Position numbers and translations under genes: made by a program
Notes under the pieces: model-generated
What the model was told of the DNA's origin: nothing
Databases searched by the model: none
Seen by the model: the letters and a program-made list of their open reading frames with translations, nothing else
Virus genome (UHGV): UHGV-0114740
Direction: 5' to 3' (one strand)
Source of the DNA: a virus
DNA length: 35,468 bases
Shown here: piece by piece, positions 1-35,418 of the stretch
How the letters are laid out: each line of letters starts with the position of its first letter
Position numbering within the stretch: position 1 is the stretch's first letter

Positions 1-18
1 TTACCCTGGCAACCGATT

Positions 19-40
19 GACGGGGGATTGCTCCCCCGTC
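19..40 (-). other. GC-rich hairpin (9-bp stem GACGGGGGA / TCCCCCGTC, loop TTGC) just 3' of the hok-like ORF
   Basis: Perfect inverted repeat seen in sequence 10 nt downstream of the stop codon; could be an mRNA 3' stabilising or terminator structure. No U-tract follows. Confidence 0.35.
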
Positions 41-49
41 GCGGTTTCC

Positions 50-190
50 TTACTGCTTACACTGTAAGAACGCCGCAAACTCCGCTCCCCAGAAGCTTAT
101 CCGTATTTCGCACAGCGAACCGTGCAGCATCCAGATGATGAGGATTGCCGTCACGCAGAACGTGATGGCCGTAAGCGATTTTTGCGACAT
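50..190 (-). CDS. Hok/Gef-family type I toxin-like small membrane protein (46 aa, MSQKSLTAITFCVTAILIIWMLHGSLCEIRISFWGAEFAAFLQCKQ)
   Basis: Own translation of the minus strand; below the ORF-track size cutoff. N-terminal hydrophobic helix then SLCEIR...AAFL.CK, recalling HokA/Hok. SD AGGAG 8 nt upstream of ATG (190..188); stop TAA at 52..50. Confidence 0.55.
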   Translation of the reverse strand: MSQKSLTAITFCVTAILIIWMLHGSLCEIRISFWGAEFAAFLQCKQ

Positions 191-380
191 AGCGCTTGCT
201 CCTTTTTCAGGGAGGCGCTAACCTATCACTTGCTAAGGTTAGACGGTTAGGGCCTCGGTTAAACAGAAATGTTTTCCGGGGCCTTTCCACATCTGGCCTT
301 CGGGTATTCCCTCCGACCATCAGCCGAAAGGCACCCGCGCGTAATCTATCGCTTTTTTGTTACTCCGGCAATTCTGCCTG

Positions 381-641
381 TTAATTCTGAGATAAAGGCA
401 AACTCATCTGATTGTTTCCCCTGTGTGAAGCTGGCAACTCATGCCACGGGATACCTTCTGAAGAGTGAACGCCGGGGGCGTGTTTCGATGTGAATTTATG
501 GAAAGCTTCCAGTGTTGAGAAACTTATGCCGCATTCCAGGTTGTTACACTGGTAATATTTTTTCCGTACGGTGTTTGAATCATTTTCCGAACGACTGGTG
601 CGGATACGGGCAGATGCGCCACAAAGCGGACAACGGAACAT
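381..641 (-). CDS. ogr: Ogr-like zinc-finger late-gene transcriptional activator
   Basis: Translation MFRCPLCGASARIRTSR...YYQCNNLECGISF has the CxxC...CxxxxC arrangement of P2 Ogr; strong SD AAGGGAGG upstream; sits downstream of D as in P2. Confidence 0.8.
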   Translation of the reverse strand: MFRCPLCGASARIRTSRSENDSNTVRKKYYQCNNLECGISFSTLEAFHKFTSKHAPGVHSSEGIPWHELPASHRGNNQMSLPLSQN

Positions 642-683
642 AGCGACCTCCCTTAACGTGGTGCTTCTGCTATTCTAAGTTGC

Positions 684-1793
684 TCACTCTGTTTCTGCTA
701 TCCATTCCGGGATTTTTGCTTCAAGCTCAAGCTGCGTGGTAAAGCCACTGTTATCAATGGTGTGCTCGGCTTTCGCAATAATCCAGTCCTGATTATCAAT
801 CTCGCTTTTAAATCCTGTTACCGTGCCATGCATTTCGGGGTAGAGTTCTGCGCGTCCACGAGCCAGTGTGATGGAGAATGATGCGGCTCCGCGTTGTAGC
901 TGCTGCCACTTTGCCGCCGCTGCGCGTCTTGCTGCCAGCTCGTTCTGATAAGTCTTGCGTAACACAAACACATTGCCATCCGCGCCTTCCATATAGTCAC
1001 CTTCACGGCTGCTGCTTTTCTCCTTTTTGGGTTTTGGCGGTTTACGGCGTTTCACGCTGACTTTTTTCTTTTTCCCGTAATTAAGATCAAGCCAGTAGGC
1101 GCGTACCCCCGTATACGCCTCGCGGTCAGCAATACGGAACTGATGGCGATCGCCGCTGCTGCGTGTAATGGCGAACGAGGGCAACGGCTGGCCCTGTGCG
1201 TTCACGCCACCACCTGGCATGATGAATAACAGATTACCGCTTTTTACCGTGGTGATTGCGCCCAGCATTTCCGCCATGCGCGTAAGGAAGGACATGTCGC
1301 TTTCTTCGGTCTGGTCGGCGTGGTCGATTTCGATATCCATCAGCATTTCGCTGATTTGCGGTTTCAGACCATACCGATGAGCGATGGCGGATACCACACG
1401 CTCAACGGTCACATCATGCCAGGACACCTCACGTTTAACGTTAAATTCATCCCGAAAATCTGCGCTTCTGGCTGAAACAGTCAGCCTGTCCGGCGGTCCT
1501 TCGTGAGCGATTTCATCAACAATGTAAGTGCCTTTTTCTGTCAGCGGTTCCCCTTTCCAGCCAATGAGAACCGTCAGGCGCGCGCCCCGTGGCGGTAGCT
1601 GCAACTGACCATCTGCATCATCCAGCGTGATGGTGAGCTGGTCTGCTTCAAATCCCCGGTTGTCGGTCAGTGACAGGCTCATCAGGCGCTCTGCCACGCC
1701 TGACAGCGTTTTACCCTCCGCGAGAATATCAAAATCCGGCATTTTCACGGGGTCTGTGCCCTGACTGATCAATTGCATGGTGGTGTCGGTCAT
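684..1793 (-). CDS. D: Tail protein D (late control gene D family)
   Basis: Translation contains LTDNRGFEADQLTITLDDADG, SWHD and FLTR blocks matching P2 gpD. Start placed at internal ATG 1793 (MTDTTMQ...) preceded by SD GGGAGGG; the track ORF runs to 1925. Confidence 0.85.
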   Translation of the reverse strand: MTDTTMQLISQGTDPVKMPDFDILAEGKTLSGVAERLMSLSLTDNRGFEADQLTITLDDADGQLQLPPRGARLTVLIGWKGEPLTEKGTYIVDEIAHEGPPDRLTVSARSADFRDEFNVKREVSWHDVTVERVVSAIAHRYGLKPQISEMLMDIEIDHADQTEESDMSFLTRMAEMLGAITTVKSGNLLFIMPGGGVNAQGQPLPSFAITRSSGDRHQFRIADREAYTGVRAYWLDLNYGKKKKVSVKRRKPPKPKKEKSSSREGDYMEGADGNVFVLRKTYQNELAARRAAAAKWQQLQRGAASFSITLARGRAELYPEMHGTVTGFKSEIDNQDWIIAKAEHTIDNSGFTTQLELEAKIPEWIAETE

Positions 1794-1950
1794 CTGTTCC
1801 CTCCCTGTGCGGCATGGTCGCATGTGCGTGCGGAGGGGGTTACTGCTTTTTGTTGTCGCCGGGTCGGGAGAACGGCGCAGGGGTGAGATTACGCGCGTGG
1901 TGGGTGATGATTGTTGCCGAATCATTTAACGGATACAAGGGGCTGAAGCT

Positions 1951-3135
1951 ATGAGTGAAACTCGTTTTCATGGTGCCCGTGTTACGGAAAATACCGACCT
2001 GGTAACAGCGATTAACGATGTTGATTCCAGCGTTATCGGTATCGTGGCAACGGCGGATGATGCGGACGCGAAGCTGTTCCCGCTGAACAAGCCCACATTG
2101 CTGACCCGCGTCAATGACGTGCTGGGAAAATGCGGAACAACGGGGACGCTTTATCGTGCGCTTAAGGCCATCGCAGACCAGGTGAGCACAAAGGTGATCG
2201 TCGTTCGCGTGGCTGAACACAAAGAAGAAGACGGAAAGACGCAGGATCAACTGGTTATCGGTGGTTCTGAGGATGACGGCAGCTATACGGGGATGTATGC
2301 GCTGCTTGTTGCAGAGCAGGATGAAAGCATCGGATACCGTCCGCGTATTCTGGCCGCGCCGGAGCTGGACACGGAGGCTGTAACAAAATCCCTGTGCGTG
2401 ATTGCAGGTAAACTGCGCGCGTTTGTGTATGCCTCATGTCACGGCTGTAACACGATGGCTGAGGCGATTACCTATCGCCAGAAATTCAACGAACGTGAGG
2501 TGATGCTCTTATGGCCGGACTTCATCGCCTACAACCCGAAAAGTGGCAAAAACGAAACGTTCCCCGCGCCTGCCTATGCGTGCGGCCTTCGTGCGTACAT
2601 TGACCATGAGCAGGGGTGGCACAAATCACTGTCCAACGTTCCGGTTAAAAATGTGCTGGGGATGTCGAGGCATGTGTTCTGGTCGTTGCAGGCCGAAGAC
2701 AGCGATGCCAACAGCCTCAACAACAAAGAAATCACGACCATTATTCGTCGCAACGGGTTCCGCTTCTGGGGCAACCGCACACCGGAAACGAACGCCTACA
2801 TCTTTGAGGTGTATACCCGAACCGCACAGGTGCTGGCTGATTCAATTGCGGAAGCGCAGTTTGAAACCATCGACAGTCCACTGACGCCTGCGAACGTGAA
2901 GGATGTTATCAGTGCCATCAGGGCAAAACTGGATTCGCTGGTTACTGCCGGGAAACTGATTGGCGCGGAGTGCTGGTATGACGTGGTGGATAACGGCACC
3001 ACGGATTTACGTCAGGGGCGTGTGCGTATTCGCTACAAATATACGCCCGTTCCGCCACTGGAAGACATGGAGCTTTACCAGACGTTTACTGATGAATTCT
3101 TTGGTCCCGCATTTGCGGTGCTGGGAGGTGCCTGA
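1951..3135 (+). CDS. FI: Contractile tail sheath protein FI
   Basis: 394-aa translation aligns by eye along its length with P2 FI (LRAF.Y..CHGC, LWPDF, EQGWHK.LSNV, RRNGFRFWGNRT, YTPVPPLE). Confidence 0.9.
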   Translation: MSETRFHGARVTENTDLVTAINDVDSSVIGIVATADDADAKLFPLNKPTLLTRVNDVLGKCGTTGTLYRALKAIADQVSTKVIVVRVAEHKEEDGKTQDQLVIGGSEDDGSYTGMYALLVAEQDESIGYRPRILAAPELDTEAVTKSLCVIAGKLRAFVYASCHGCNTMAEAITYRQKFNEREVMLLWPDFIAYNPKSGKNETFPAPAYACGLRAYIDHEQGWHKSLSNVPVKNVLGMSRHVFWSLQAEDSDANSLNNKEITTIIRRNGFRFWGNRTPETNAYIFEVYTRTAQVLADSIAEAQFETIDSPLTPANVKDVISAIRAKLDSLVTAGKLIGAECWYDVVDNGTTDLRQGRVRIRYKYTPVPPLEDMELYQTFTDEFFGPAFAVLGGA

Positions 3136-3701: not shown

Positions 3702-4067
3702 ATGAAAGAGACGAAAAACATCGATAACGAAAACACGGTCGTTGCTGACACTGTGAAAGAAACCAGTGAGCGTGGCGTAAAACTTACCCAACCAATTGAG
3801 CGAGGCGGCGAAAAAATCACGTATGTGGAGATTACCGGAGCTATTGAGCAGGCTGGATCTCTGCGAGATTTGTCGCTGTCTGATGTGCTGAATCTGAAAG
3901 CGGAATCCATGTTTACGCTGCTGTCACGCGTGACATCACCGCGACTGGATGAAGTGACGATCAAAAAAATGGCATCCCGTGACTTTATTCAGTTATGTGT
4001 GGTTGCCGTAAATTTTTTGAGCGGTGCGGACTCTGGCGGGAAGAACGAACAGGCGACGGAAGCCTGA
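3702..4067 (+). CDS. E: Tail assembly chaperone E (0-frame product)
   Basis: Position between tube and tape-measure genes; SD GGAG upstream; contains a slippery heptamer near its 3' end. Confidence 0.75.
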   Translation: MKETKNIDNENTVVADTVKETSERGVKLTQPIERGGEKITYVEITGAIEQAGSLRDLSLSDVLNLKAESMFTLLSRVTSPRLDEVTIKKMASRDFIQLCVVAVNFLSGADSGGKNEQATEA

Positions 4068-4231: not shown

Positions 4232-7025
4232 TATCCGGGTCGCTTTCAGCGCCGTTGACAGGCTGACCCGGCCTGCCGAAAACGCCCGCCGCCTGATGGG
4301 GCAGTTTGGTGACTCCATCCAGCGAACGCAGGGGGCGATCAAAAATCTCGAGCGTCAGGCGCGTTCATTTGAGCGCGCCCGTGACGCTGTCAGTAAAGCG
4401 GATGCGGGCATCGTGAAAGCACGACGCCAGCTTAACGCCCTTAATCAGTTACAACGCACGGGTACAGTGCTCAGCGAAAAACAACAAAAGCTGATGCAGC
4501 AGTTAAGCACCCGGCTTGAACGCCTGAATGAATCGCGCACGCGGGAAATTCAGAAAATGCGGGAGCTTGGCGGAGAGCTGAAACGCCACGGCATTTCCCT
4601 GACAGGCAGCGATAACACCATCCAGCAGGCCATCAGACGCACCGAACAGTACAACAACCAGCTTGAACGCGAACGGCAGGCGCTTGCGCGTGTAACGCGG
4701 GCGCGTGAGCGGTATTCGCGCGCGCAGGAAACAGCGGGAAAACTGAAAACAGGTGGTGCACTGGCAATTGGTGCGGCAGCGGCGGGCGGCTATGCTGCCG
4801 GGCGTTTTTTGCAGCCTGCGATCGGGTTCGGCAAAGAGATGTCCCGCGTTCAGGCACTGACGCGAATCGACCAGAACAGCCCGCAGTTTAAGGCGCTGCG
4901 TGAGCAGGCGTTAAAACTTGGCTCTGAAACGCAGTTCACCGCAGGCGATGCCGCCAGTGGACAGGCATTTCTTGCAATGGCTGGCTTCACTCCGCAGGCC
5001 ATTCAGGCTGCGCTTCCCGGCGTGCTGAGCATGGCAACGGCTGGCGGTATGGATCTCGGCGAGACGGCAGATATTGGCTCAAATATCCTGACGCAGTTCG
5101 GCCTTTCTGCTGACCAGATGGACCGGGTCGGTGACACACTCACCGCAGCGTTTACCCGTACCAACACTGACCTTCGCGCACTGGGCGAAACCATGAAATA
5201 TGCAGGTCCGGTGGCGGGTAAGCTGGGAATATCGCTGGAGCAGGCCGCAGCGATGGCGGGCGTGCTGGCGAATATGGGCATCAGAGGGAGTGATGCCGGG
5301 ACGGCAATGCGTGCCAGCCTGGCTCGTCTGGCATCACCGCCAAAGGCGGCGGCAGAAGCTCTGAAAGAGCTGGGCGTGTCCGTCTCGGATGCCGGGGGCA
5401 AAATGCGCCCGATGGAAGATCTGCTGGCTGACCTTTATAAAGCTACCCGCAAATACGGGGAAGTTGACCGGGTATCCTTCTTTAAGGACATCGCCGGGGA
5501 AGAGGCTTTCACATCGTTTATGGCACTCGTTGATGCGGCGGGTGACGGTTCCTTACCCAAACTGAGAAAAGAACTTGAGGGCGCACGCGGTGAGGCTGAA
5601 CGCACGGCAAAGGTTATGGCCGACAACCTTGATGGCGACCTGAAAAATCTCGACAGCGCATGGGAAGGTCTTCGTATTCGCATCAGTGATCTGGTTGACG
5701 GTCCGCTGCGTTCTATCACGCAGTGGCTAACACGGGTGGTCTCAAAGGTGACGGTACTGGCGCAGGCCCATCCTGTACTGACGCGCCAGCTACTGATTGC
5801 AGGCGGTGCGCTGCTGGCAGTGACTGCAACCGTAGGCTCATTGGCGCTTGCTCTTGGTGTGCTTGCTGGCCCGCTGGCAAAACTGCGTCTTGGTTTTTCC
5901 CTCCTGATCGGATCAATGAATGCTGTCAGGGTCCTGCCAGCACTATGGGGAATGGTGACGGGTTCCGTTTCTTTGCTGGGAGGTGCTATCGGGGCGCTGT
6001 TCAGTCCGGTTGGTCTTATCGTGGCTGCGCTTGCCGGAGCTGCCATTCTTATCTGGAAATATTGGGATCCCATCAGGGCATTTTTTGCCGGGGTGTTCAG
6101 CGGAATTATGGAAAGGCTGACCCCGTTGCGCGAAACCTTTGAACGGTTTGGTCCTGTTTTTGACGCAATCGGAAGCGGGATCAGCCAGGTGTTTAACTGG
6201 TTTAAATCGCTGTTGTCACCGATGGAGTCCAGCAAGGAAACGCTGGATAAATGCACCAGTGCTGGCGAGGTATTCGGCAACGTTCTTGGTGGCGCGTTAC
6301 AGCTTGTTCTGACGCCAGCAAAAATGTTGCTGGATACGCTGGCGTGGATACTTGAAAAACTCGGTGTGCTTCCGGATGAAGCGGAAAGGGCGAGAAAGAA
6401 AATCGAAGACGCACAGCGTGCGGCCATTCTTCAGGACAAGGTTGCCTTGCTTCAGGGTGACCTGGCGAAAACTAATCCGCCGAAGCCTGTGGAAAATGGC
6501 AATGGCACCGGAGGTGATAAACCCAAAGACAACAAACCGCTCACAGACAGCAATACCGGTACGCTACGCAGACTCAGCAAAATTGCTGATAACACAGGTA
6601 AGCTGGTTGATGAGACGAAAAAACGCATTGGCCCCGGCGATATTGTCTTTAAGAACCTGCCCCGCGCACTTGCCGTTCGTGGGGAGTGGCAGGAGCGGAA
6701 GATTGCGCAGGTCAGTAAGCCTGCCCCCGCAATTAATATCCCGCCTGTGGTTCCGGCCCTGCTGCCTCCGGCGCTGGTCCCTGTTGTTGCGGCCAGCTCC
6801 CGCCCGGTGGCGGAGGCCATACGATCGCCAGTGGCATCAGCCCCAACACCTTCGCGTAACCGGGAACCTGTTGCCTCAGGACTTGGCGGTGAAATTCATG
6901 TTCATCTGCATAACGTTGTTACGCAGAATCCCCGCGAACTGGCGAAACTGGTCGGTGAAATGGTCAGGGCAGAAATGGAACGGCGCGCCCGTGCCGGGCG
7001 TGGCAGTTTTTACGATAAAGATTGA
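4218..7025 (+). CDS. T: Tail tape measure protein T
   Basis: ~940-aa ORF after E/E', coiled-coil-rich N-terminus, hydrophobic middle, Pro/Ala-rich C-terminus. Start placed at MKTLD (4218) with SD GGGAG; the track ORF begins at 4182. Confidence 0.85.
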   Translation: MKTLDIRVAFSAVDRLTRPAENARRLMGQFGDSIQRTQGAIKNLERQARSFERARDAVSKADAGIVKARRQLNALNQLQRTGTVLSEKQQKLMQQLSTRLERLNESRTREIQKMRELGGELKRHGISLTGSDNTIQQAIRRTEQYNNQLERERQALARVTRARERYSRAQETAGKLKTGGALAIGAAAAGGYAAGRFLQPAIGFGKEMSRVQALTRIDQNSPQFKALREQALKLGSETQFTAGDAASGQAFLAMAGFTPQAIQAALPGVLSMATAGGMDLGETADIGSNILTQFGLSADQMDRVGDTLTAAFTRTNTDLRALGETMKYAGPVAGKLGISLEQAAAMAGVLANMGIRGSDAGTAMRASLARLASPPKAAAEALKELGVSVSDAGGKMRPMEDLLADLYKATRKYGEVDRVSFFKDIAGEEAFTSFMALVDAAGDGSLPKLRKELEGARGEAERTAKVMADNLDGDLKNLDSAWEGLRIRISDLVDGPLRSITQWLTRVVSKVTVLAQAHPVLTRQLLIAGGALLAVTATVGSLALALGVLAGPLAKLRLGFSLLIGSMNAVRVLPALWGMVTGSVSLLGGAIGALFSPVGLIVAALAGAAILIWKYWDPIRAFFAGVFSGIMERLTPLRETFERFGPVFDAIGSGISQVFNWFKSLLSPMESSKETLDKCTSAGEVFGNVLGGALQLVLTPAKMLLDTLAWILEKLGVLPDEAERARKKIEDAQRAAILQDKVALLQGDLAKTNPPKPVENGNGTGGDKPKDNKPLTDSNTGTLRRLSKIADNTGKLVDETKKRIGPGDIVFKNLPRALAVRGEWQERKIAQVSKPAPAINIPPVVPALLPPALVPVVAASSRPVAEAIRSPVASAPTPSRNREPVASGLGGEIHVHLHNVVTQNPRELAKLVGEMVRAEMERRARAGRGSFYDKD

Positions 7026-30507: not shown

Positions 30508-30829
30508 GGTGTGGCCTCTTTGCTCGGTGATAGAAATAACTCACCATCCAGAGTTGAGAATCTCGGGGTGGCGAGACGTACAGGGTTCTCAACACCGGAG
30601 AGCAAAGAATCCGGCCCGACCGAAGTCGGCCCCGTACGCCCCGCCATAATTCTGACGCGAAAAAGACGTGGCAATACAGTACGCACAAAAAAACCGCTTG
30701 CGCGGTTATGCGCTTTGCTCTGTATCGGGTTGAGAATCCCGGCACCCGTTTTATGAGGTGCAGCGGAAATGTAACCTGACCGATTGAGGCATGGCAAGCG
30801 GTTTTTTTGTGTGTGCATGTTCTGGTTTC

Positions 30830-34398: not shown

Positions 34399-35418
34399 TT
34401 GGAGGGCTTCGCAATGTCAATTAAGAAGCTCGAAGATGGTCGTTATTTGCTGGACATCAGGCCGAACGGACGCAAGGGAAAGCGCGTGCGTAAGGTATTT
34501 GACAAAAAATCGGTAGCGGTGGCCACTGAACGCTACATCATGGCGAACGCTGAAAAGCGGGAATATATACAGGGCTACCGTGATCGCCGAACGCTAAATG
34601 ATTTGCTTGAGTTGTGGTGGATGTATCACGGTCAACACAGGCGTAAGGCGGAAGAAGACCGAAAACAACTGCGCAACATAATCAGTGAGCTTGGCGCTGA
34701 TATGCAGGCTGTGGATCTTGATAAGCTGAAAATTATCGCGTGGCGTTCTCAAAAGATAGCTGCTGGATTGAAACCGTCATCTGCTAACAGGTACATGAAC
34801 CGACTATCCGGCATGTTTACTGTTCTGAAAAGAATAGGCCTTTGGGATGCAGAACATCCGGTAAGGGGGATCTCCATTCTTTATGTATCCCCGCGAGAAA
34901 TGGCTTTCCTGTCCCAGAAGGAAGTAGCGCTATTGCTCGATACACTGGAGGGCGACTACTGGCGTGTTGCGCTTTTGTGTTTAAGCACAGGGGCGCGCTG
35001 GAGTGAAGCTTGTAAGCTTCGTGGTGAACAGATAGTTCATAACCGTGTAACGTTTCTTGAAACCAAAAATGGCCGGAAGAGAACAGTGCCAATTTCGCAG
35101 GCAGTTTGTGAGGCGATCAAAACCAGAGAAACAGGCAGCTTGTTTGAGGTGAAGTACCGGGAATTCTGCCTGGCGCTGAAAAGAGTTAAGCCCGATTTAC
35201 CAAAAGGCCAGGCTGCACATGTGCTGCGGCATACGTTCGCCAGCCATTTTGTGATGAACGGAGGAAACATTATTGCGCTTCAGAAGATTCTTGGTCACGC
35301 AACCATTCAGCAAACAATGGCATATGCACATTTTGCACCGGATTACCTGCAGGATGCGGTGGCCCTTAATCCGCTGAAAGGTGGCGTGAGTGTCCACGCA
35401 GTGTCCACGGGGGATTAA
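34399..35418 (+). CDS. int: Tyrosine integrase (P2 Int family)
   Basis: IKKLEDGRYLLDIRPNGRKGKRVRKVFDKK, ILCLSTGARWSEA, HNRVTFLETKNGRKRTVPIS, HVLRHTFASHF, ILGHATIQQTMAYAHFAPDYLQDA closely parallel P2 Int. True start possibly MSIKK at 34414. Confidence 0.9.
   Translation: MEGFAMSIKKLEDGRYLLDIRPNGRKGKRVRKVFDKKSVAVATERYIMANAEKREYIQGYRDRRTLNDLLELWWMYHGQHRRKAEEDRKQLRNIISELGADMQAVDLDKLKIIAWRSQKIAAGLKPSSANRYMNRLSGMFTVLKRIGLWDAEHPVRGISILYVSPREMAFLSQKEVALLLDTLEGDYWRVALLCLSTGARWSEACKLRGEQIVHNRVTFLETKNGRKRTVPISQAVCEAIKTRETGSLFEVKYREFCLALKRVKPDLPKGQAAHVLRHTFASHFVMNGGNIIALQKILGHATIQQTMAYAHFAPDYLQDAVALNPLKGGVSVHAVSTGD

What the first reader, a model, noticed from the sequence alone, without database searches (positions are those of the whole stretch)
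1..380. Hok/Gef-like type I toxin gene downstream of ogr, invisible to the ORF track
A 46-aa minus-strand ORF (50..190) with a TM helix and SLCEIR...AAFL.CK resembles HokA-type toxins. Its SD (AGGAG) sits inside an inverted repeat (AGCGC..CTCC...GGAG..GCGCT, 191..219) that could sequester it, and a 9-bp GC hairpin lies 10 nt past the stop. The ~190-nt leader between ogr and the ORF has room for mok/sok-like control elements. It may be phage cargo (post-segregational killing or abortive infection) or host DNA just outside attR; the window cannot tell.
Basis: partly seen in the sequence, partly recalled or inferred. Interest (0 to 1): 0.6.

Follow-up and report, generated by a model that had tools for sequence, protein, structure and literature searches.

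The report
Hok toxin module in P2-like prophage
This is a genuine Hok-family membrane-toxin gene with its RNA control elements, carried as cargo near one end of a P88/P2-like E. coli prophage. It is already annotated in public phage and E. coli genomes, so it is ordinary, except that this subfamily seems to lack the usual 'mok' leader reading frame.

Summary
ORF 50..190(-) encodes a 46-aa protein that passes Pfam HOK_GEF (32.2 bits against a cutoff of 22). It is 45% identical to K-12 HokA and evolves under purifying selection (dN/dS 0.11-0.39).

The same locus, 99.7% identical, is annotated in phage P88_4B11, and related copies in P88 and Chuche. PGAP calls it 'Hok/Gef family protein' in 1545 of 5426 complete E. 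coli genomes. It lies inside the prophage. Virion-derived genomes carry it, and in lysogens variable cargo separates it from attR, which sits in pdxB codons 1-8.

The RNA architecture matches R1 hok/sok:
- its own promoter, with +1 predicted at 336;
- a 5' tac element that pairs with a 3' fbi (GGCACCC);
- a ucb/GAGG hairpin and a sequestered SD;
- a protective 3' stem-loop;
- an antisense Sok-like gene whose -10 hexamer (TAACCT, 219-224) is identical and homologous to the experimentally mutated sokW -10.

Twenty-one of 80 predicted pairs covary across 19 relatives.

The window edge cuts the mRNA 12 nt before fbi. No conserved mok frame exists. Folding instead suggests that 3' trimming frees the hok SD directly and that Sok binding re-sequesters it.

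Known kind, low novelty.

The parts
343..371 (-). Predicted hok promoter. -35 TTGCCG at 371..366, a 17-nt spacer, -10 TAGATT at 348..343, then 6 nt to the predicted +1 (G336). It starts 10 nt after the ogr stop codon.
   Evidence: Read from the sequence. The -10 (TAGATT/TAGAAT/TAAATT) and its distance to GGGTGCC are kept in P2-like, lambdoid and other prophage contexts. It scores 8 of 12 consensus matches, below the scanner's threshold. No transcript data.
322..336 (-). Predicted mRNA 5' end and tac element, GGGUGCCUUUCGGCU. It pairs with the 3' fbi in the full-length RNA, and with ucb (288..278) after 3' trimming.
   Evidence: Start of the Rfam RF01794 match. MFE fold of the full-length RNA. 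tac/fbi: 7 near-invariant pairs plus 4 covarying pairs. tac/ucb: the same columns 10-11 covary with columns 51-50.
251..288 (-). ucb-like box GGAAAGGCCCC (288..278) and the sokT-type hairpin (283..251). The hairpin ends in GAGGC, with GAGG at 256..253. This is the equivalent of the R1 mok SD, but no start codon follows it here.
   Evidence: Helix 5 has compensatory changes (GC/AU in 6 sequences, CG/UA in 2). In the truncated consensus GAGGC pairs with the anti-SD GCCUC (column 85/125: GC in 17, AU in 2).
196..290 (+). Predicted Sok-like antisense RNA gene. -35 TTGCTC at 196-201, 17-nt spacer, -10 TAACCT at 219-224, start near 231. The RNA has a single-stranded 5' tail of about 14-18 nt, a hairpin GGCCUCGG..CCGGGGCC (about 249-285), then UUUCC.
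   Evidence: The -10 hexamer is identical to, and aligns with, the sokW -10 that was mutated to make the 'pro-less' construct (primers; alignment). It is invariant as TA[A/T]CCT, with the 17-nt spacer kept in the E. coli-type and GGAGT-variant sequences read by eye, across the family alignments. Hairpin -24.1 kcal/mol, z -3.2. No expression data.
190..220 (-). SD-sequestering hairpin. UAGCGC/GCGCUA plus CCUC/GGAG enclose the hok SD AAGGAG (204..199) and the first base of the AUG.
   Evidence: helix 7 (99% of cells paired, wobble changes only).
50..190 (-). hok coding sequence, 46 codons plus the TAA stop. N-terminal hydrophobic helix (about residues 6-23); conserved GSLCE...AEFAAFLQCK C-terminal part. 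It carries Ile31 where relatives mostly have Met.
   Evidence: dN/dS 0.11-0.39 against 8 relatives. 45% identity to K-12 HokA.
19..40 (-). 9-bp G+C stem-loop of the 3' UTR. It is homologous in position to the terminal stem-loop that protects processed (truncated) R1 hok mRNA from 3' exonucleases.
   Evidence: -19.7 kcal/mol, z -6.4. 5 of 9 pairs have compensatory changes. Role by analogy with PMC9841398.
1..17 (-). 3' UTR segment AUCGGUUGCCAGG (17..5). In the full-length RNA it pairs with 238..225, which overlaps the target of the Sok 5' tail. The window ends here, 12 nt short of the fbi element GGCACCC seen in all close relatives.
   Evidence: Helix 6 has 5 covarying pairs. Relatives' downstream sequence.
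207..320 (-). 37-codon upstream ORF in the frame used by mok in R1. It starts at an AUG 17 nt from the predicted 5' end, with no SD, and stops (UGA 209..207) in the loop just before the hok SD. It is not conserved, so it is probably not a functional mok.
   Evidence: 13 of 20 family mRNAs have no upstream ORF that reaches the hok SD, and the rest differ in start position.
381..641 (-). ogr (late-gene activator, Ogr/Delta zinc finger). Context gene that marks the late end of the P2-like genome.
   Evidence: Pfam Ogr_Delta 57.8 bits. Annotated in relatives.

Best explanation
Window 1..371 holds most of a hok/sok-type type I toxin-antitoxin module. It is carried as accessory cargo of a P88-like (Xuanwuvirus, P2-like) prophage, between ogr and a variable cargo region next to attR.

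Shown here:
- The ORF is a Hok/Gef-family protein under purifying selection.
- The module sits inside the phage genome.
- Its mRNA has the conserved, covarying architecture of hok mRNAs.

Inferred mechanism:
1. A constitutive promoter gives an mRNA starting at G336.
2. In the full-length form, the 5' tac element (336..322) pairs with a 3' fbi element (GGCACCC, just outside the window). In that form the GAGG box is held by ucb, the Sok-tail target (246..231) is held by the 3' UTR segment 17..5, and the hok SD/AUG are held in the hairpin 220..190. The RNA is then neither translated nor bound by antisense RNA.
3. Slow 3' trimming back to the stem-loop 40..19 removes fbi.
4. tac then pairs with ucb, and GAGGC captures the anti-SD GCCUC. 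The hok SD opens.
5. A short, unstable Sok-like RNA made from the + strand (about 231..288) pairs with the exposed leader. This lets the anti-SD re-sequester the hok SD and probably triggers RNase III cleavage, as reported for R1 and sokW.
6. When Sok synthesis stops (prophage loss, induction, or transcription shut-off by an infecting phage), the stable mRNA pool is translated. Hok inserts into the inner membrane and kills or lyses the cell.

Unlike R1, no mok leader frame appears to be needed.
For: Identity:
- Pfam HOK_GEF above gathering.
- PHROG 251.
- 45% identity to HokA and 34% to HokW.
- Conserved G24, C27, AEFAAFLQCK.
- dN/dS 0.11-0.39.

Already annotated:
- P88_4B11 at 99.7% identity, also Chuche, P88 and 500465-2.
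- PGAP 'Hok/Gef family protein' in 1545 of 5426 E. coli genomes.

Inside the prophage:
- In phage Chuche (isolated from mud) the order is int..., Dam, Com, hok, ogr.
- Lysogens read pdxB|int ... ogr-hok-cargo|flk.
- The 20-nt att core lies 1.76 kb beyond hok.

RNA:
- Rfam hok-leader model, E 2.7e-8.
- The full-length fold closes 5' to 3', z -6.2.
- The RNAalifold structure on 19 distinct mRNAs is 97% paired. 21 of 80 pairs have compensatory changes, against 0-7 in slid controls and 0 of 500 shuffles.
- The truncated consensus gives tac/ucb and GAGGC/anti-SD pairing, with three-way covariation.
- Opening energy of the hok SD-AUG region in the window is 12.2 kcal/mol (full length), 7.8 (truncated) and 13.5 (truncated with the Sok target blocked).
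- All 19 relatives go in the same direction, with means 11.6, 8.2 and 11.8.

Sok:
- The -10 TAACCT is identical and positionally homologous to the sokW -10 whose mutation abolished antitoxin activity.
- Stable hairpin with a U-rich tail.

Mechanistic precedents: PMC9841398 and PMC8621323.
Against: - There are no transcript, toxicity or processing data for this subfamily.
- Both promoters are below the scanner's consensus threshold.
- The Rfam match is below gathering (43.6 against 59), and no relative reaches it.
- The fbi partner and the terminator are not in the window, so for this particular copy the 3' end is inferred from relatives that are 95-99.7% identical.
- In R1, mok translation is mandatory for hok translation. 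Its absence here could mean weak or no translation rather than a different mechanism.
- Covariation comes from few lineages (E. coli type, Salmonella types, Sp5 type), and the structure was derived from the same alignment.
- The biological role (addiction, lysis aid or abortive infection) is not resolved by any evidence here. Hok did not match PADLOC.
Confidence: 0.85

Rival explanations
1. Canonical R1-like coupling. The 37-codon upstream ORF (320..207) acts as mok. Ribosomes that terminate at UGA 209..207, in the loop of the SD hairpin, melt it and allow hok initiation. Sok would act by blocking passage or translation of that frame.
For: The uORF is in the frame mok uses in R1 and stops 2 nt before AAGGAG. 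In R1, mok translation up to the hok SD is sufficient and necessary. In strain 401651 the same frame runs on over hok for 87 codons.
Against: Its AUG has no SD and lies 17 nt from the 5' end, next to the tac element. The frame is interrupted or frameshifted in Chuche, P88 and the Sp5 copy, and the AUG is absent in Salmonella and Klebsiella members. 13 of 20 mRNAs have no upstream ORF reaching the SD. The canonical mok start after GAGG is AAC/AGC/AGA in the aligned family members.
Confidence: 0.1
2. The locus is an inactive relic, like several K-12 hok loci. It would be carried passively, with no functional toxin expression in this copy.
For: mok is missing. The window copy has an M31I change. 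Decayed copies exist in the family: a mutated tac in L033/L034 and a 5'-truncated copy in L020. K-12 hokA is disrupted by IS150.
Against: The ORF, SD, promoter and all RNA elements visible in the window are intact. dN/dS is well below 1. Compensatory changes maintain the RNA helices. Residue 31 is variable (M/L/I/F) in the family. The module is retained in phages that form virions.
Confidence: 0.08
3. On role rather than mechanism: the module mainly helps the phage at induction, through earlier membrane damage and progeny release as shown for hokW-sokW. Alternatively it excludes superinfecting phages by abortive infection. Either would replace prophage addiction as the main role.
For: hokW-sokW doubles Sp5 release after mitomycin C, and sokW disappears on induction. 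R1 hok/sok reduces T4 plating (cited). The neighbouring variable cargo includes defence-like genes such as a RES NAD+ phosphorylase.
Against: Nothing has been tested for this subfamily. P2-like phages are not SOS-inducible in the classical way (own knowledge). A survey found hok not enriched near defence systems (section title). No PADLOC match.
Confidence: 0.4
4. The ORF is host chromosomal DNA just outside attR.
For: It is the last gene visible at the window edge, downstream of ogr, which is the last gene in P2.
Against: The locus is present in phage genome records (P88, Chuche, PhiR44_2). In lysogens 1.5-3 kb of phage cargo and the att core lie between hok and flk.
Confidence: 0.01

Closest known systems
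hok/sok (parB) of plasmid R1, the type I TA paradigm
   Same: Hok/Gef toxin. The mRNA has a tac/fbi 5'-3' closure, a ucb box, a GAGG box paired alternately with ucb and with a downstream CCUC box, a sequestered hok SD and a protective 3' stem-loop. A short cis-antisense RNA has its -35 overlapping the hok SD region. The leader matches the Rfam hok-leader model.
   Different: 46 aa against 52 aa. There is no mok start codon after GAGG and no conserved overlapping frame. The module is on a prophage, not a plasmid. The Rfam score is below gathering.
hokW-sokW of Stx2 prophage Sp5 (Takada et al. 2021, PMC8621323)
   Same: A prophage-borne hok/sok module shown to be a working TA. It shares the Sok -10 hexamer TAACCT, the 17-nt spacer and the GGGTGC 5' end.
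   Different: Only 34% protein identity over 35 aa. hokW has an in-frame upstream AUG (MokW, 70 aa). It sits in a lambdoid phage at a different position.
Second, 46-aa hok module of Stx phages (downstream of lom in VT2-Sakai, 933W-like phages)
   Same: Same subfamily. 82.5% nucleotide identity over window 9..357, with all RNA elements kept and compensatory changes in the 3' hairpin and next to fbi.
   Different: Lambdoid context. Unannotated in AP000363.1 and not studied experimentally.
Annotated orthologues: P88 gp52 (YP_009113095.1), P88_4B11 gp32 (YP_009877421.1), E. coli WP_000078916.1
   Same: Same gene at the same place (ogr-hok), 95-99.7% nucleotide identity.
   Different: The window protein has Ile31 instead of Met31. 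Public records annotate only the CDS, not Sok or the mRNA elements.
HokA of E. coli K-12
   Same: Closest named paralogue: 45% identity, and shared ...SLCE..I....E.AAFL.CK. It is also the best NCBIfam model.
   Different: Not an equivalog (35.8 bits against a cutoff of 89). Chromosomal, and disrupted by IS150 in K-12.

Membership tests
Hok/Gef toxin family (Pfam PF01848) | Profile match above the curated gathering score | tested here: met
   32.2 bits against 22, E 7.8e-8, covering profile positions 5-42 of 42. PHROG 251, 80.9 bits.
Hok/Gef toxin family (Pfam PF01848) | Peptide of about 50 aa with an N-terminal transmembrane helix and a conserved L-C-E motif in the C-terminal part | tested here: met
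   46 aa, with hydrophobic residues 6-23. Of the L26-C27-E28 motif, C27 is invariant and L26 and E28 are at least 90% conserved in 31 subfamily members. C31 and E32 are among the most conserved positions of the family logo.
Hok/Gef toxin family (Pfam PF01848) | Toxic to the cell when expressed (membrane damage) | not testable with these tools
   Needs inducible expression. Representative Hok homologues of many clusters were toxic in the bioRxiv survey (abstract), but this cluster was not checked here.
hok/sok-type type I TA locus (R1 paradigm) | Long-range tac/fbi pairing of the mRNA 5' and 3' ends | tested here: met
   Relatives that are 95-99.7% identical carry GGCACCC 59 nt after the stop. 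MFE closure. 7 near-invariant pairs plus 4 covarying pairs. In the window itself the 3' partner lies 12 nt beyond position 1.
hok/sok-type type I TA locus (R1 paradigm) | Alternative tac/ucb pairing, and release of the GAGG box, after 3' truncation | tested here: met
   The truncated consensus fold has tac/ucb with two covarying pairs, and GAGGC/GCCUC with one covarying pair. Window fold. Computational only.
hok/sok-type type I TA locus (R1 paradigm) | [quoted passage not shown] | tested here: met
   Window 40..19, -19.7 kcal/mol, z -6.4, 5 of 9 pairs covary.
hok/sok-type type I TA locus (R1 paradigm) | Cis-encoded antisense Sok RNA with its own promoter, complementary to the leader | tested here: inconclusive
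   -35 TTGCTC, 17 nt, -10 TAACCT. The -10 is identical and homologous to the validated sokW -10. Hairpin plus U-rich tail. The promoter scanner found nothing at its threshold. No expression data.
hok/sok-type type I TA locus (R1 paradigm) | mok leader reading frame (SD GAGG plus a start codon) that overlaps hok and is needed for hok translation | tested here: not met
   GAGG is kept but is followed by AAC/AGC/AGA, not a start codon, in the aligned members. No upstream ORF reaches the hok SD in 13 of 20, and the rest are heterogeneous.
Rfam RF01794 ('sok'; in fact it models the hok mRNA leader, sense strand) | Covariance-model score at or above gathering (59 bits) | tested here: not met
   43.6 bits, E 2.7e-8, full-length match 336..177(-). 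No gathering-level hit in four relatives. The model's orientation was deduced from the hokW primers.
HokA equivalog (NCBIfam NF007290) | Score at or above the equivalog cutoff (89 bits) | tested here: not met
   35.8 bits. 45% identity to K-12 HokA.

The most novel reading that the evidence does not exclude
This 46-aa, prophage-end Hok subfamily may be regulated without any mok leader peptide. After 3' trimming, the retained 'mok SD' box GAGGC would act as an anti-anti-SD that pulls the anti-SD off the hok SD. Sok would repress by occupying GAGGC, so that the hok SD hairpin re-forms. That would be a purely RNA-structural relay in place of translational coupling.
Probability: 0.3. Interest if true: 0.4.

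Novelty: already known. Interest (0 to 1): 0.2.

Why it matters
For annotation, it shows that a short toxin gene missed by ORF-length filters is real. It also shows that public records annotate only the CDS, not the Sok RNA or the mRNA switch elements.

Biologically, it adds little beyond published knowledge. hok modules are already known to be enriched in prophages and to be functional there. The one point that could interest specialists is the apparent loss of mok in a widespread subfamily, present in about 28% of complete E. coli genomes. If confirmed, the textbook requirement for mok coupling would not be general.

Tried and rejected
- With an alignment, the one-genome-per-species scan gave only 6 loci. 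Three have implausible hosts (Planococcaceae MAG, Vagococcus, Xanthomonas pisi) and are probably contamination. Diversity was therefore gathered through the look-up of encoding contigs.
- I tested whether the window is a circularly permuted complete genome by joining its two ends. No phage record spans the junction. Both window ends lie inside the prophage.
- The sigma-70 scanner found no promoter, and only the 3' hairpin as 'terminator-like', on the wrong strand. The promoters were instead placed by homology.
- A search for mok in all frames was negative.
- There were no PDB sequence relatives and no PADLOC match.
- Rfam at gathering threshold finds nothing at the locus, in the window or in relatives.
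- YUNR U-turn motifs occur in the predicted Sok-target loop. They are too short to count as evidence and were read by eye only.

Full report
WHAT IS THERE

The window is a P88-like (genus Xuanwuvirus, Peduoviridae, P2-like) prophage segment.
- gpD is at 684..1925(-) and ogr at 381..641(-). Tail, head and replication genes follow, with the integrase at 34399..35418(+).
- The ORF passes Pfam HOK_GEF: 32.2 bits, gathering 22, E 7.8e-8.
- It matches PHROG 251, 'MokW-like host killing', at 80.9 bits.
- Its best NCBIfam model is HokA, but far below the equivalog cutoff: 35.8 against 89.
- It is 45% identical to K-12 HokA and 34% to HokW.
- No PDB relative and no PADLOC match.

IS IT REAL, AND IS IT NEW?

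The gene is conserved and under purifying selection.
- Thirty-one subfamily proteins from E. coli, Shigella, Salmonella and Klebsiella keep M1, Q3, K4, G24, C27, A36, E37, A39, A40, L42, Q43, C44 and K45.
- dN/dS between the window copy and eight relatives is 0.11-0.39.

It is not new.
- Window 1..700 is 99.7% identical to Xuanwuvirus P88_4B11.
- It is 95-97% identical to phages Chuche, Shae_phiSM, PhiR44_2, P88 and 500465-2.
- PGAP calls it 'Hok/Gef family protein' (WP_000078916.1).
- Window 1..380 is found in 1545 of 5426 complete E. coli genomes.

INSIDE OR OUTSIDE THE PROPHAGE?

Inside.
- Phage Chuche, isolated from mud, has the order cox, C, int..., Dam methyltransferase, Com, hok, ogr, D.
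- In E. coli lysogens the order is pdxB | int ... D, ogr, hok, Zn-ribbon protein, TagO-like protein (with or without a RES NAD+ phosphorylase) | flk.
- In strain 401651 the duplicated att core is AAAATCCTTGTTGATGAAAA, which is pdxB codons 1-8.
- That core lies 133 nt beyond the window's right end and about 1.76 kb beyond its left end.
- Joining the two window ends matches no phage record, so the window is an internal piece of the prophage.
- The same subfamily recurs as the last or nearly last gene of other prophage types. These include Salmonella P2-like, lambdoid tail-fibre ends and HP1_ORF34-type elements, sometimes in tandem arrays of two or three.

RNA ANATOMY

The Rfam 'sok' model RF01794 matches 336..177 on the minus strand, end to end, at 43.6 bits. 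That is E 2.7e-8 but below gathering 59. The model is in fact in hok-sense orientation. Its consensus matches the hokW upstream homology arm, and the hokW mRNA probe is antisense to it. So the match marks the hok mRNA leader, and I predict +1 at G336.

Upstream lie -35 TTGCCG (371..366), a 17-nt spacer and -10 TAGATT (348..343). The -10 and its spacing are kept in very different genomic contexts.

In six close relatives the conserved block runs from this promoter to ...GGTCGATAAGGCACCC(TATCTC) and then diverges. The window therefore stops 12 nt short of a GGCACCC box that is complementary to the 5' GGGUGCC. Several relatives then carry a canonical terminator 20-40 nt further on.

Folding of the full-length and cut RNAs:
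- The full-length RNA of P88_4B11 pairs its first 15 nt with that 3' box (-159.5 kcal/mol, z -6.2).
- The window RNA, which lacks the box, instead folds its 5' end onto GGAAAGGCCCC at 288..278 (z -5.1).

COVARIATION

Nineteen distinct full-length mRNAs were aligned (A4). On the RNAalifold consensus, 97% of cells are paired. Twenty-one of 80 pairs have compensatory changes, against 0-7 in slid controls and 0 of 500 shuffles. The supported helices, with window coordinates where they apply, are:
- tac/fbi: 7 near-invariant pairs plus 4 covarying pairs.
- The ucb/GAGG hairpin (283..251).
- A helix that ties 238..225 to the 3' UTR segment 17..5: 5 covarying pairs.
- The SD hairpin (220..190): wobble changes only.
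- A helix that pairs the start-codon region (188..175) with the AEFAA-coding region (85..72). This explains the invariant synonymous sites there.
- The 3' stem-loop (40..19): 5 covarying pairs.

Truncating the alignment after the 3' stem-loop gives a different consensus. tac pairs with ucb, GAGGC pairs with the anti-SD GCCUC, and the hok SD is unpaired. Columns 10-11 covary with both of their alternative partners. Column 85 covaries with column 56 in the full-length fold and with column 125 in the truncated fold.

Caveats: the lineages are few, and the structures were derived from the same alignment.

THE ANTITOXIN

On the + strand, -35 TTGCTC (196-201), a 17-nt spacer and -10 TAACCT (219-224) precede a predicted RNA of about 58 nt. 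It has a single-stranded 5' tail complementary to 246..231, a hairpin of -24.1 kcal/mol, and UUUCC.

The hokW-sokW locus of Sp5 was fetched. It aligns TAGGTTAGC with the same sequence in this locus. The primers used to build the sokW 'pro-less' mutant change exactly that hexamer (TAACCT to GAGCCG on the Sok strand), and this abolished antitoxin activity.

The hexamer is TA[A/T]CCT in all family members. The 17-nt spacer was counted by eye only, in the E. coli-type and GGAGT-variant sequences. This is good homology evidence, but not expression evidence.

MOK

In R1, a GAGG SD and an AUG 7 nt later start mok, and mok translation up to the hok SD is mandatory (PMC9841398). hokW has such an AUG, in frame.

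In this subfamily GAGG is kept but is followed by AAC/AGC/AGA in the aligned members.

The window has a 37-codon ORF (320..207) in the R1 mok frame. It ends in the loop just before the hok SD. But:
- its AUG has no SD;
- the frame is broken in Chuche, P88 and the Sp5 copy;
- the AUG is absent from the Salmonella and Klebsiella members;
- 13 of 20 mRNAs have no upstream ORF that reaches the SD.

So the mok criterion is not met.

HOW IT PROBABLY WORKS (INFERRED)

The opening energy of the hok SD-AUG region in the window RNA is:
- 12.2 kcal/mol for the full-length RNA;
- 7.8 kcal/mol after truncation;
- 13.5 kcal/mol when the Sok target (mRNA positions 47-106) is blocked.

All 19 relatives move in the same direction, with means of 11.6, 8.2 and 11.8 kcal/mol.

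This fits a relay without a leader peptide. 3' trimming removes fbi, tac captures ucb, GAGGC captures the anti-SD, and the hok SD opens. Sok binding removes GAGGC from play, so the SD hairpin re-forms. RNase III cleavage probably also contributes, as in R1 and sokW.

The helix between 238..225 and 17..5 would also hide the Sok-tail target in the full-length RNA. P(unpaired) there is 0.17 in the full-length RNA and 0.66 in the truncated RNA. This reproduces the R1 rule that only processed mRNA binds Sok.

ROLE

Unresolved. Three roles are on the table:
- Prophage addiction, that is, post-segregational killing.
- Help with lysis and release at induction, as shown for hokW-sokW.
- Exclusion of other phages, as reported for R1 hok/sok against T4 (cited).

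VERDICT

Its only possibly new feature is the absence of mok. Interest is low.

Noticed in passing
window 30564..30651(-) and 30687..30761(-): Two adjacent Rfam hits above gathering in the early region of the prophage: C4 antisense RNA (78.5 bits) and isrK Hfq-binding RNA (63.1 bits). This is a P1/P7-type C4/IsrK-like regulatory RNA pair inside a P2-like phage.
   Followed up: no
L008 2501-2795 (AP000363.1 44588-44882): Stx2 phage Sp5/VT2-Sakai carries a second, unannotated hok module of the 46-aa type downstream of lom. It is 82.5% identical to the window locus and distinct from hokW-sokW. The published hokW-sokW deletion study did not remove it.
   Followed up: partly
L030-L032 2005-3141; L023/L024 4001-4635: Salmonella P2-like prophages have three complete hok modules in tandem right after ogr. 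Other elements have two. Each copy has its own promoter, tac, fbi and terminator.
   Followed up: partly
L033/L034 about 2850-3000; L020 about 3800-4000: Apparently decaying copies. In the P0020-type loci the 5' end reads GGACACC instead of GGGUGCC while fbi GGCACCC is kept, which breaks tac/fbi. The L020 copy lacks the promoter and tac altogether.
   Followed up: partly
L007 about 4260-4322 (E. coli 401651, beyond the window's right end): The phage integrates in pdxB codons 1-8 and replaces the GTG start. Phage DNA supplies AAGGAG plus a TTG start in frame (MSETEKGL-KILVDEN...). PGAP annotates pdxB only from Met9.
   Followed up: partly
L004/L005 3064-5634; L003 1881-2823; L035 3828-4761: The stretch between hok and attR is a variable cargo spot. 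It holds a Zn-ribbon protein plus a TagO-like protein, with or without a RES-family NAD+ phosphorylase, or a Com plus DNA methyltransferase pair.
   Followed up: no
L010, L011, L014: Near-identical hok loci appear in assemblies labelled Planococcaceae MAG, Vagococcus sp. and Xanthomonas pisi. They are on short or enterobacterial-looking contigs and are probably contamination.
   Followed up: no
L017 4295-4492(-): The enterobacterial sRNA STnc540 (171.6 bits) lies immediately beyond the hok module, at the prophage/host junction next to ihfA, in a Salmonella lysogen.
   Followed up: no
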